Shown here: positions 31,578 to 49,370 of the stretch, one piece after another
How positions within the stretch are numbered: the stretch's first letter is position 1
How the letters are laid out: each line of letters opens with the position of its first letter
NCBI GenBank assembly: GCA_963924565.1
Contig: OZ004610.1
Coordinates: 6,510,001 to 6,574,000 of the forward strand
Origin: Ascidiella aspersa
Taxonomy: Eukaryota
Length of the DNA stretch: 64,000 nucleotides
Direction: 5' to 3'
The notes under the pieces: generated by a model
What the model was told of the DNA's origin: nothing
Seen by the model: the letters and a program-made list of their open reading frames with translations, nothing else
Database searches by the model: none
Program-made: the position numbers and the translations under genes

Positions 31578-31650
31578 AATCGCTACGAGCTCGGCCCCTC
31601 CCGTCTGCGCATGCGCAGTTTCCGGGAACGACGTCATTTAGGCATTTTTT
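31578..31650 (-). promoter_or_regulatory. SECIS element (type II) of GPx-B
   Basis: AUGAC-GUCGUUCCCG-G-AAA-CUGCG(CAUG)CGCAG-A-CGGGAGGGGC-CGAG: UGA/GA quartet, 10-bp helix II, unpaired AA, apical ministem; core spans 31637-31590, 57 nt after the TAG. Confidence 0.9.
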
Positions 31651-31693
31651 GCGCGGAGGTTTTCCGTCCGTTGTTTGTGTCGTTTGCAGCACG

Positions 31694-46056: not shown

Positions 46057-49000
46057 TTATTTCATGAGAAGGTCGTCGACCCAGTTGGTGAGGATGCTGG
46101 CCAGAGGCCCGCTTCCGAATCGCCACCTGGAAAAGATAAAAATATGATTTAAGAGCGTATTTACTACTGGGGGCAAAAATACTGTCTAAACTTGGCGAAT
46201 CACATGGGGAAAACTAATTACTTCCTTTCATTTACATGCACCCTGTCTAAAGGCAAACAATGCTTCGTAATTTAAAAAATGTTATTCGGTGTATGCTGTT
46301 GGCTGTTGTTTTTTGGCAAAAAACAAAAAGCGTTTTCGTTGACTCTAAACGGCGAGATTTGGCTTTCACGTTTGCTGACCTCATTCATGTGCTAAGCGAG
46401 TAAGCCCGATACTTTCCTTAGCAGATGTCTAATATTTATAAGAAATGTAGGGCGTCAGATCCGACTTTCACAAGAAAGCAGTATAAACGTGAGCGTTGTC
46501 GCAACAGTTGTAGCCCATATGTTTGTTCCTTGCAGTGTAACGTACCTCGGGATACCTTCCTTATCCAGCAGAAACTTGTTGAAGTTCCAGTAGATATCGT
46601 TGGCCTTGATGGGCGACCAGTAAAGTTCGCTCGTGATGCCGATGTTGGGGCTGGTGGGAGGACACGACGCCTGAAAGACAGAAATCGTTGTTTTATGGTC
46701 ATGCATAACCTCTTTGGTGTTGTTTGACTTAAGCGTAGCTTTGGTTTAAAAATAATTGGGAAGCTAAGCAAGTCATTGGTCAAATTCAATAAGTACAACA
46801 ACAAGCTTTTTAAATTTAACATATATATTTTAGGTGATTTAACTAAATTAAGAACTACTCAGGAATGGTTGGAGGTTGTAGTAAGATATAGTAAGAATAT
46901 CAAAGCCCAAACAGAAGTAGATATTATTGTAAATGTTTCAAATAACTCTTTTATTCATTTTCAATCTGTTTAAATGTGAAATTTTAACGTTAAGTGATGA
47001 TAAGACAAGTACGATGATACAAGTTTTGGCTTTAAGATTCATTTACAAGCTACATTACAGATCCGTGAATAGTGTATGTCACGATTAGTCTGCATTTTTT
47101 TTAAAGCTGTAAAAGTAGTAAAACCATTGGTGGAACACAACGGTAGAATTCTGCTCAAACCTCTCAGCCAATCGGTTCGTCAGCTGTACCTACATAATAA
47201 AGCCATACATCTATTCACACCTTCAAGTTGGTAAAGAAGGGTTCCTCCGTTGCCCCGTTCACTTCGCTCTTGGCGAAGAAGAAGATCTTCTTGTTGGGCA
47301 CGAATCCGTGTCCCGGCCTCACGTATTTGACGCTGTTGACAATCTCGTCGTTGGCGTCTGGTTGCTGCAAACCAAACTGGTTGCAGGGAAAGGCGAGCAC
47401 CACAACTGGTTTGTTGGTGTATTGCTGCGCGAGAGGTCATAATAGTTATTATAATGACGTAGGCTACTTGGAAGCAATATTTGTAATATCCTGGGTCAAT
47501 GTTAATTGTTTTGAAATATTGTGTTAACTTGATTGAAATCTTTAACGCAAAATTGCTTTATTTTTACCAAAAATATTGGGACCCTTGGGTTGAACAAAGT
47601 GAAAAGATTTTCCTAATTGGAAAATTGTTTTTCCAAGTAGTAAATCTTTTGCTAATGACTTATTTATCTTTGTAAATTGTTTTGGGAATCTAAAAAATTA
47701 ATCGTTTCTTTGTTTGGCAATTTCGATTTGATGTCAATGATTTAACTGGGATGACTAGAACCATAACTAATAGTAATGAATTCTGTTAAAAATATAGGAG
47801 GTTGTGAAACAAACCGAATGTATTTAAAACGCTGTAATTGTCCGGCTGGTAAAGGCAGTGTAGCTTATAAACAGAGGTTTCGGTATTTTTGTAATAAAGC
47901 GTTTAATCTCAGCGAAAATTTGGAGTTTTTGCTGTCACGAAAATACAAAAAAACAGTCTTGCACTTACCTCAAGTAGTGCATTCAGGCCCTTGTACTGGG
48001 GCGCAGTCTGGCCTCAGTAGGTGGCCACGTTGATTACAAGGGAAACGTTGCCCCGAAATTCGTCCAGGCTCACCATGTTACCCATGAGGTCGGTGAACTT
48101 CTGGTCGTACACCGAAAACTACAAGTGAGAAAAATATGTCTGAAGTTTTTAAAGGGGTGGTTGTCCACGTTTGTGGATATAGTCACACATTTTTAAAGGT
48201 CTCGTGATGAAAAATACAGGTTTTAAGTTTTAATCATGTTAAAAATCAGCAGTTGGTAGAGAAAAATAACTGCGAAGATTCCACTCATAGCAATATTTGT
48301 TTCTATTGTACCTGAAATAAATGCCTTTATTTAGGCAGGAAATAAAGATTTTTGTTTGTAAGAACAAAATTGGGACAGTATTTCAATGAGAATTTATCAA
48401 CGATCGTTCGCCAAGGAGTGTTTTTTATTTTCTTGTTTTGCAAAACAAAATTATTTTAGGAACATTACACGTTATATATGGCATAATAAAGCCGTACAAT
48501 TGTCTAGGTGTGTTGATTGTTTCGTATACAGCGAAGTTGAAACACAGTAAATGAGCTGGATTAACTCCAACCAAAATGTAACGGGTTTTAATACAAAAAT
48601 TAGGGTCAAATTTACAGCGTTTTGTTTAAAGTTTAGTGCCATTGCCTCTGAAAAACACATTATAAATGTCCATCATCTTTTTTTTAAATAAAGACATTTT
48701 GATCTGATCAAATGATAAATAAACAACACTGATTGGCCTAGTTCAGTGGTTGCCAAACTTTTTTATTTCGTGGCCTAATTTTTTTTACAAAGCAGATCGA
48801 AGCCCATCGTTTTTTTCACCTCTGGTAATGCCTATTACATATTCATTACCAAAAGTTTGCCAATATTATAAGGATTTTTGTTCCTTGCAACAATTGGAGC
48901 TTTAATAAGTTCCAGTGTGTCAAAGTTAAACAACTCGCACGCACAGTTTTCACAAGACATTTTAAGTACGCCAAAAATATTTTAGTACCACTATTTTAGT

Positions 49001-49370
49001 ACTATAGTAGCATTATTTTCAAATAGCACTATGGCCCACTTAAAATAGACTCACGGTCAACTACTGGGCCATGGCCCACAGTTTGGGAACCACTGGCCTA
49101 GTAGTTTAACATTTAAGTTTACAAAAATAGGAAGAATGGTTTGCTGCCTCATATCAATGGCAAAATTATCCCCCATAAAATTTGCCACATTACCGATACC
49201 GACAAATTGTCTTAAAATCTTGACTAGCATTCGCACCACCGTGCTTTATTAGGTCAAAGTACAAATTATCCTACCTTTGCATCACTAAAACATGTTGAGT
49301 TTTCCACTTGTGCCGCTGTGGCCAGGCCACACAGCAGCAGTAAGGACGGCAGAGCGCTTGATAGCGCCAT
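46057..49370 (-). CDS. GPX: secreted selenocysteine glutathione peroxidase 'GPx-A' (GPx3-like), 214 aa; exons 49370-49275, 48118-47969, 47424-47221, 46670-46546, 46126-46057
   Basis: Signal peptide [29 protein letters not shown](48016-48014)-[34 protein letters not shown]; same exon phases and near-identical exon sizes as GPx-B; SECIS downstream. Confidence 0.95.
48744..49095. mobile_element. hAT-type MITE in GPx-A intron 1
   Basis: TIRs cagtggttgccaaact / agtttgggaaccactg; 7/8 TSD gcctagtt / gcctagta. Confidence 0.82.

What the first reader, a model, noticed from the sequence alone, without database searches (positions are those of the whole stretch)
31590..49370. Tandem pair of secreted selenoprotein GPx genes hidden from ORF callers
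Seen: two head-to-tail genes with the same intron phases, signal peptides, in-frame TGA in NVATY-U-G, the Sec/Gln/Trp/Asn catalytic tetrad and paralogous type II SECIS elements that differ in sequence but keep their pairing. Established: UGA plus SECIS encodes Sec, and the YVRPGxG loop marks the tetrameric GPx1/2/3/5/6 group. Automated annotation would probably truncate or split these genes. Both retain Sec after duplication.
Basis: partly seen in the sequence, partly recalled or inferred. Interest (0 to 1): 0.7.

Follow-up and report, generated by a model that had tools for sequence, protein, structure and literature searches.

The report
Twin sea-squirt selenium antioxidant genes
Two neighbouring, spliced and transcribed genes of a likely sea squirt each carry an internal stop codon at the active site plus a matching RNA hairpin, so they likely make secreted selenium-containing antioxidant enzymes of an already known family; the only unusual extras are an added last exon in one gene and a second predicted hairpin shared by both.

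Summary
Confirmed and mostly ordinary. Both minus-strand genes are classical (GPx1/2/3/5/6-type) glutathione peroxidases with TGA at the catalytic codon. RNA reads support all four introns of gene A (9-14 reads each), with the TGA exon kept. One spliced contig covers gene B. A SECIS pattern scan hits only the two 3'UTRs in 128 kb of strands; Rfam's SECIS models miss both. The genome has tRNA-Sec and SepSecS.

Corrections: gene B has six exons, not five. The extra last exon looks like a diverged copy of exon 5 and adds 25 residues. The duplication looks old: A groups with Ciona and Clavelina proteins, and synonymous sites are near saturation. The pair sits with invertebrate classical GPx, not specifically with vertebrate GPx3.

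New leads: both UTRs hold a second hairpin 90-91 nt after the SECIS core start, with an identical 13-mer and different stems. B's promoter and exon 1 lie in a 2.28-kb tandem duplication that looks polymorphic. Sec insertion, secretion and tetramer formation are inferred, not tested.

The parts
49275..49370 (-). Gene A exon 1 (coding part, 96 nt): hydrophobic N-terminus, predicted signal peptide; Cys27
   Evidence: joint 48118-49275 in 9 RNA reads; hydropathy peak 2.47
47969..48118 (-). Gene A exon 2 with in-frame TGA at 48016-48014 (codon 67, predicted Sec)
   Evidence: both flanking joints in RNA; Pfam GSHPx 41.9 bits with TGA read through
47221..47424 (-). Gene A exon 3: catalytic Gln, YVRPGHG loop
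46546..46670 (-). Gene A exon 4: subunit-interface loop, Trp-Asn of the tetrad
46057..46126 (-). Gene A exon 5 coding part, TAA stop; protein 214 aa
   Evidence: joint 46124-46544 in 14 RNA reads
45949..45996 (-). Gene A SECIS core, helix II and apical mini-helix (type II form)
   Evidence: RNA depth 12-17 across it
45886..45923 (-). Gene A second 3'UTR hairpin; shared 13-mer at 45906-45894
   Evidence: predicted fold only
40804..43087 (.). Second copy of a 2.28-kb tandem duplication (first copy 38522-40803) holding gene B's upstream region and an identical exon 1 (41017-40922)
   Evidence: contig break points and depth in run X1, unbroken in X2
38640..38735 (-). Gene B exon 1 (proximal copy, coding part): predicted signal peptide; Cys27
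   Evidence: X3 contig 16
36622..36774 (-). Gene B exon 2 with in-frame TGA at 36669-36667 (codon 68, predicted Sec)
35314..35517 (-). Gene B exon 3: catalytic Gln, YVRPGHG; Ser in place of the Cys of FPCNQF
33180..33304 (-). Gene B exon 4: subunit-interface loop, Trp-Asn
32351..32419 (-). Gene B exon 5 (69 nt), homologue of gene A's last exon; an in-frame TAA lies just inside its donor site
   Evidence: bin depth gives 69.0 nt
32005..32059 (-). Partial second copy of exon 6 inside a ~290-bp local duplication (205 of 269 aligned columns identical); not used by the one RNA contig seen
31694..31769 (-). Gene B exon 6 coding part: 25-residue extension, likely a diverged copy of exon 5; TAG stop; protein 240 aa
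31590..31637 (-). Gene B SECIS core, helix II and apical mini-helix; lower helix I weak
   Evidence: inside X3 contig 16
31520..31570 (-). Gene B second 3'UTR hairpin; shared 13-mer at 31546-31534
   Evidence: predicted fold only

Best explanation
These are two intact, spliced and transcribed paralogous glutathione peroxidase genes whose active-site UGA is likely read as selenocysteine under a 3'UTR SECIS hairpin, giving enzymes predicted to be secreted, oligomeric peroxide scavengers of the invertebrate classical-GPx kind. Shown: exon structure, splicing with the UGA exon kept, UTRs that include the hairpins, tRNA-Sec and SepSecS in the genome. Inferred from family knowledge: a SECIS-binding protein and eEFSec deliver Sec-tRNA to the UGA; the signal peptide sends the protein into the secretory path; Sec, Gln, Trp and Asn reduce peroxides with a thiol donor; the interface loops build dimers or tetramers. 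The pair likely arose by tandem duplication in an early ascidian, before the Ciona and Clavelina lines split. Gene B later gained a sixth exon, likely by duplication of its last exon, and a new splice donor removes the old stop codon.
For: Gene A joints in RNA run X4: 14, 12, 11 and 9 reads, all GT-AG, all also in X3 contigs. Gene B: X3 contig 16 (1085 nt) shows exons 1, 2, 3 and 6, and its 194-nt gap equals exon 4 (125) plus exon 5 (69). TGA at the Pfam GSHPx catalytic position. SECIS scan: 2 of 2 window hits are in the two UTRs, null mean 0.45; the same scan finds hairpins behind both GPx4-like Sec genes of this genome. tRNA-Sec with TCA anticodon in 4 of 4 loci checked; SepSecS present. 12 of 13 coding variants among the rows shown are synonymous (40 of 167 and 40 of 238 rows were shown). 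Best solved-structure matches are GPx3/1/6/5/2 (E 1e-14 to 1e-17) ahead of GPx4 (E about 1e-5); exon 4 of B aligns to the GPx3 loop without gaps. Tree: tunicate clade 95/91, A with Ciona F7AGI1 and one Clavelina protein 92/94, A+B as sisters p-AU 0.048. Fourfold sites identical 20 of 53; introns no more alike than shuffles.
Against: No direct test of readthrough, secretion or oligomer state. Rfam SECIS models miss both hairpins. Helix I of B's SECIS is weak and loses to other folds in a longer window. No splice joint of gene B was among the 15 rows shown of 63; B rests on one contig of a run whose library type is not on record, and raw-read depth on B is only 1-6. The AU test is borderline and the branching inside the tunicate clade is mostly unresolved. 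An AATAAA lies before gene A's SECIS (46061), though RNA depth runs on through the SECIS.
Confidence: 0.9

Rival explanations
1. Gene A is a working selenoprotein gene, but gene B is a weak or decaying copy with poor Sec insertion, and its extra exon is splicing drift.
For: B has lower raw-read depth (1-6 against 15-19 at listed sites), weak SECIS helix I, Ser for the conserved Cys of FPCNQF, a longer branch (0.48 against 0.23) and local duplications at both ends.
Against: B's frame is open through six exons, 9 of its 10 shown coding variants are synonymous, the TGA is kept on a second haplotype (all 7 differences of X1 contig 4 lie elsewhere), and SECIS and second hairpin persist despite near-saturated synonymous sites.
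Confidence: 0.07
2. The likeness of the two 3'UTRs comes from a fairly recent duplication or from gene conversion between neighbours, not from selection on a second RNA element.
For: The genes are neighbours, which favours conversion; SECIS cores are 29 of 48 identical; weak likeness runs about 150 nt past the SECIS; only two sequences are available.
Against: Fourfold sites 20 of 53 identical and intron scores at shuffle level; A is closer to Ciona F7AGI1 (97/136) than to B (79/136); the stems around the shared 13-mer differ in sequence yet both pair (11 and 15 of 1000 flank shuffles fold as well).
Confidence: 0.3
3. The UGA is a true stop; the genes give short peptides or are decayed messages.
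For: Readthrough was not measured; Rfam does not recognise the hairpins.
Against: The TGA sits on the catalytic codon in both genes and in three other GPx loci of the genome; the frame after it is open and under synonymous-only variation; the Sec machinery is present.
Confidence: 0.02

Closest known systems
Ciona intestinalis/savignyi and Clavelina lepadiformis classical GPx (UniRef F7AGI1, H2YB20, H2XPC7; CAK8686966.1, CAK8698298.1); Ciona 'Gpx a-e' selenoprotein genes of PMC2874816
   Same: One clade with A and B (95/91); A is 97/136 identical to F7AGI1; two members each in Ciona intestinalis and Clavelina.
   Different: Those records lack the Sec and, in 4 of 5, the N-terminus. None has a C-terminal extension like B's. 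The two Clavelina proteins are on different contigs, and the five Ciona Gpx genes are listed on five different arms or scaffolds, so tandem order is not shown there. I could not map the Ciona names to these proteins (supplement unreadable).
Vertebrate GPx3/GPx5/GPx6 and fish GPx3b (NCBI 'GPx9', equated with GPx3b from recall)
   Same: Best PDB matches (2R37 GPx3, 7FC2 GPx6, 2I3Y GPx5); hydrophobic N-terminus; interface loop and PGxG motif. GPx5 and GPx6 also arose by tandem duplication of GPx3 (PMC3316567, passages).
   Different: A and B do not join the vertebrate clade in my trees. The motif is PGHG, not PGGG, and WNFNK stands for WNFEK. Both copies keep Sec, whereas GPx5 has Cys.
Classical GPx of invertebrates (cGPxIn, PMC8614756)
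   Same: Dimer/tetramer features present; unresolved between GPx1/2 and GPx3/5/6 (passages); in my large tree the tunicate clade sits with nemertean, snail and nematode proteins.
   Different: Nothing at family level; C-terminal tails are common in this group (34 of 167 proteins have 55 or more residues from the WN motif).
SelS (SELENOS) stem-loop SL2 downstream of the SECIS (PMC3628699)
   Same: A conserved non-SECIS hairpin behind a SECIS; the 140 nt behind the SelS SECIS inhibit Sec insertion (passages).
   Different: SL2 is AU-rich and directly adjacent; the hairpin here is GC-rich, starts about 20-25 nt after the SECIS core and keeps a fixed 13-mer. No function tested.

Membership tests
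Eukaryotic SECIS-dependent selenoprotein gene | In-frame UGA aligned to a catalytic Cys/Sec, kept in spliced mRNA | tested here: met
Eukaryotic SECIS-dependent selenoprotein gene | SECIS in the transcribed 3'UTR (RUGA core, 11-13 nt arm, unpaired AA, GA) | tested here: met
   pattern scan with null; covered by RNA; but Rfam models gave no match and B's helix I is weak
Eukaryotic SECIS-dependent selenoprotein gene | Sec machinery in the genome | tested here: met
   tRNA-Sec, SepSecS; SBP2 and eEFSec not searched
Eukaryotic SECIS-dependent selenoprotein gene | Sec actually inserted | not testable with these tools
   needs reporter, 75Se or mass spectrometry
Classical GPx (GPx1/2/3/5/6 type, cGPxIn) | GSHPx domain with Sec, Gln, Trp, Asn | tested here: met
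   the tetrad definition is recalled
Classical GPx (GPx1/2/3/5/6 type, cGPxIn) | Subunit-interaction loop and PGGG-type motif (PMC2679728) | tested here: met
   ungapped alignment to GPx3 loop; PGHG at the PGGG position
Classical GPx (GPx1/2/3/5/6 type, cGPxIn) | Forms homotetramers | not tested
   no fold or complex job was run; the folding tools do not take a spliced protein
Vertebrate GPx3/5/6 subfamily | Groups with vertebrate GPx3/5/6 in a tree | tested here: not met
   tunicate clade lies outside the vertebrate GPx3/6+GPx9 clade (93/89) and in the quick tree; deep branches are weak
Vertebrate GPx3/5/6 subfamily | Signal peptide, secreted | tested here: inconclusive
   hydropathy peaks 2.47 and 2.38 in the first 20 residues, 2 and 3 sequons; no signal-peptide predictor available
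Iron-responsive element (second hairpin) | CAGUGN loop closed by a 5-bp stem with a bulged C | tested here: not met
   B has CAGUGC and A has UAGUGC, but the five flanking bases do not pair in IRE register (read; definition recalled); no Rfam IRE match

The most novel reading that the evidence does not exclude
The second hairpin is an undescribed, ancient regulatory RNA element of ascidian secreted GPx messages. It has been kept at a fixed distance (90-91 nt) from the SECIS core, with an invariant AGUGCAUUCGCCC and rebuilt stems, while synonymous sites and introns diverged almost fully. It binds a factor that tunes Sec insertion or message stability. Gene B's duplicated last exon would add a second C-terminal helix with its own job.
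Probability: 0.3. Interest if true: 0.55.

Novelty: new member of a known kind. Interest (0 to 1): 0.3.

Why it matters
The genes themselves add two members to a known selenoprotein family and show again that tunicate GPx records are cut at the Sec. They give full-length models, with signal peptide and Sec, for a clade whose 5 named database proteins all lack the Sec. If the second hairpin is functional, it would be a rare example of a non-SECIS 3'UTR structure that controls selenoprotein output, easy to test in a reporter. The apparent copy-number variation of gene B's promoter and first exon could be a natural expression variant.

Tried and rejected
Rfam scans: no SECIS or other credible family. 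Metagenome scan for tunicate orthologues with UTRs: the 80 loci kept were all 41% identical or less, none from this clade, and none held the hairpin pattern (only this window's own loci matched among 106), so cross-species conservation of the hairpin and of exon 6 is untested. Profile search found no further member of the A/B clade among the best 120 of 193 hits. The 13-mer occurs 4 times in G000; the other two sites have weaker folds (-13.8 and -8.6) and are taken as chance. A's SECIS-plus-hairpin region has no second DNA match in G000 (that search also misses B, so it is insensitive). The third classical GPx on C7 has its own SECIS-like hairpin but no such motif. Second hairpin as IRE or second SECIS: rejected on register. 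No strong hairpin right after either UGA (-9.6 and -3.0 kcal/mol). Three five-exon models of B (acceptors 32059, 31783, 31769) were dropped after the RNA contig showed exon 5. The tandem duplication as an assembly error: not favoured, see report. The run index listed no RNA holder as such; that blank is not used as evidence. The search for a GPx3 Cys-Cys bond in print gave 2 unrelated listings, so the Cys27-Cys153/154 disulfide stays a recalled lead. Searches of earlier scan notes gave nothing on this locus and 8 notes shown of 28 on other organisms.

Full report
Setting. The window is G000:C4:6510001-6574000 of a 309-Mb genome. The closest named proteins are from Ciona and Clavelina, so I take the organism to be an ascidian; that is inference from homologues only.

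Gene A. Five exons on the minus strand (49370-49275, 48118-47969, 47424-47221, 46670-46546, 46126-46057) give a 214-residue frame with one internal stop, TGA at codon 67 after NVATY. In raw RNA run X4, of which about 6 in 100 reads were used, the four joints have 9, 11, 12 and 14 reads with GT-AG ends; contigs of run X3 show the same joints. 15 of 21 joint rows were shown and none bypasses the TGA. Depth is 16.9 over the last exon, 12.1 over the SECIS bin and near zero below about 45820, next to an ATTAAA at 45818. So the main message holds the SECIS although an AATAAA overlaps the stop codon.

Gene B. Exons 1-4 match A in length and phase. My first five-exon models were wrong. X3 contig 16 (1085 nt, depth 37.3) shows exons 1, 2, 3 and a last piece 31769-31437, with 194 nt between them unlisted. 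Exon 4 accounts for 125 nt. The other 69 nt fit an AG/GT-bounded exon at 32419-32351: the contig's depth appears at 32359, X4 has 6 reads there, and the bin depth works out to 69.0 nt. This exon is the homologue of A's last exon (profile score 50.5). An in-frame TAA lies just inside its donor, so the unspliced form would end at the family's usual length. The spliced form adds exon 6 and gives 240 residues. Exon 6 scores 14.5 against a profile of 8 terminal-exon peptides; shuffles reach this with p 0.0006 (5000 shuffles), and of 6423 sampled 24-mers of the window only the two true exon-5 peptides score higher. I read it as a diverged duplicate of exon 5 (inference). B's splicing rests on this one contig, from a run whose library type is not on record but whose contigs skip introns; no B joint was among the 15 rows shown of 63, and raw-read depth is 1-6.

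Selenocysteine. With TGA read through, both exon 2 peptides match Pfam GSHPx above its cut-off. A scan for the SECIS layout gave exactly two hits on both strands of the window, 61 and 57 nt after the stops of A and B, at -23.8 and -19.1 kcal/mol; 20 shuffled windows gave 0.45 hits on average at a -7.4 cut-off. The same scan found hairpins behind the genome's two GPx4-like genes and, with a looser setting, behind a third classical GPx on C7. Against this, Rfam matched no SECIS model, unconstrained folding z-scores are weak, and B's lower helix is marginal. The genome has four strong tRNA-Sec matches, all with TCA anticodon, and SepSecS. Of 13 coding variants among the rows shown (40 of 167 and 40 of 238 rows), 12 are synonymous. 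Sec insertion itself is inferred from established knowledge of UGA plus SECIS.

Family. Exon 3 of A matches solved GPx3, 1, 6, 5 and 2 at E 1e-14 to 1e-17 and GPx4-type chains at about 1e-5. Exon 4 of B aligns without gaps to the GPx3 loop. PMC2679728 (passages) names the subunit-interaction domain and PGGG motif as marks of tetramer-forming GPx and reports GPx3-like proteins in a tunicate. PMC8614756 (passages) files such proteins as classical GPx of invertebrates, unresolved between GPx1/2 and GPx3/5/6. My quick tree used 84 of 167 fetched proteins (those with both core motifs) plus 5 from this genome; it puts A and B in a tunicate group (SH-aLRT 91) beside other invertebrates, apart from vertebrates (GPx4-like rows are misplaced there, so deep branches are unreliable). 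A careful tree of 16 hand-picked rows gives the tunicate clade 95/91 and joins A with Ciona F7AGI1, one Clavelina protein and unnamed P0002 at 92/94; holding A and B together gives p-AU 0.048. Fourfold sites are 20 of 53 identical and introns score like shuffles. The duplication is therefore likely old. Secretion rests on hydropathy, sequons and a kept Cys pair; no predictor was run.

Annotation. Four named tunicate records of this clade start at the Met after the Sec (139 residues each) and the fifth runs into unrelated residues right at the Sec. Here a stop-at-TGA caller would leave 66 and 67 residues upstream; A has no further Met until residue 213. Five Sec-GPx genes of Ciona are listed in PMC2874816 (passages); its supplement could not be read and may already describe the orthologues.

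Second hairpin. Behind the SECIS the two UTRs still align (score 43; 0 of 1000 shuffles reach it; best non-self tile of 1420, next 39). They share a 13-mer (1 of 3000 shuffles) that starts 90 and 91 nt after the SECIS core start. In both, it fills the loop and top of a predicted hairpin whose stems differ in sequence; 11 and 15 of 1000 flank shuffles fold as well, and 9 of 1500 random tiles (7 of 220 GC-rich ones) reach A's level. DNA depth there is single-copy, so it is not a repeat. With two sequences only, and neighbours at that, gene conversion cannot be excluded. The nearest precedent I found is SL2 of SelS (PMC3628699, passages). Searches listed no paper on this pair or on such an element in GPx messages; I saw listings only for most hits, and the library lacks most subscription journals.

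Tandem duplication. 38522-40803 and 40804-43087 are nearly identical and each holds B's upstream region and exon 1. In run X1, contigs break exactly at 38522 and 40803, and depth steps from 38.3 to 57-62, about one haplotype's worth (19-20) more. In X2 one contig crosses 38522 unbroken at ordinary depth. This fits a real duplication on one haplotype that another individual lacks (inference). X1 may be the assembly's own sample, and single-copy depth in X1 ranges up to about 55.

Verdict. The observation and the reading stand, with one structural correction. The genes are new members of a known kind. Interest 0.3; the second hairpin is the part worth a follow-up.

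Noticed in passing
window 38522-43087: Near-perfect 2.28-kb tandem duplication of gene B's upstream region and exon 1; contig breaks and depth suggest it is on one haplotype in X1 and absent in X2.
   Followed up: partly
window 31715-32260: About 290-bp local duplication that copies the exon 6 acceptor and its first 18 codons; 8 codons differ, 4 silently. Each unit overlaps a high-copy repeat. Use of the copy would give a hydrophobic C-terminus.
   Followed up: partly
window 46061-46056 (minus): AATAAA overlaps gene A's last codon and stop, upstream of the SECIS; its use would give a message without SECIS. 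RNA depth falls only from 16.9 to 12.1.
   Followed up: partly
G000 C7:9562096, C3:18947810, C7:17377400, C1:33308561, C3:3799418 (L013, L014, L018, L015, L022): Other GPx loci: two GPx4-like genes with TGA whose matched frame has no intron, each with a SECIS-like hairpin; a third classical Sec-GPx with different introns; a Cys GPx7/8-like gene; one weak further match.
   Followed up: partly
L006-L009; G000 C6:15767372 and C6:15785128-15787096: Four tRNA-Sec genes, two of them 2.8 kb apart on C1; one lies about 18 kb from the SepSecS gene on C6.
   Followed up: no
window 35314-35517: Gene B has Ser where FPCNQF has Cys, while A and all six aligned tunicate relatives keep Cys.
   Followed up: no
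window near 10804 (minus): Open frame with an SH3-like stretch resembling the N-terminus of GRB2-type adaptors (name recalled, not searched).
   Followed up: no
window 46864-47076, 48600-49100, 33470-33800, 34406-34815: High-copy short interspersed repeats inside the introns of both genes (depth in the thousands in X1 and X2).
   Followed up: no
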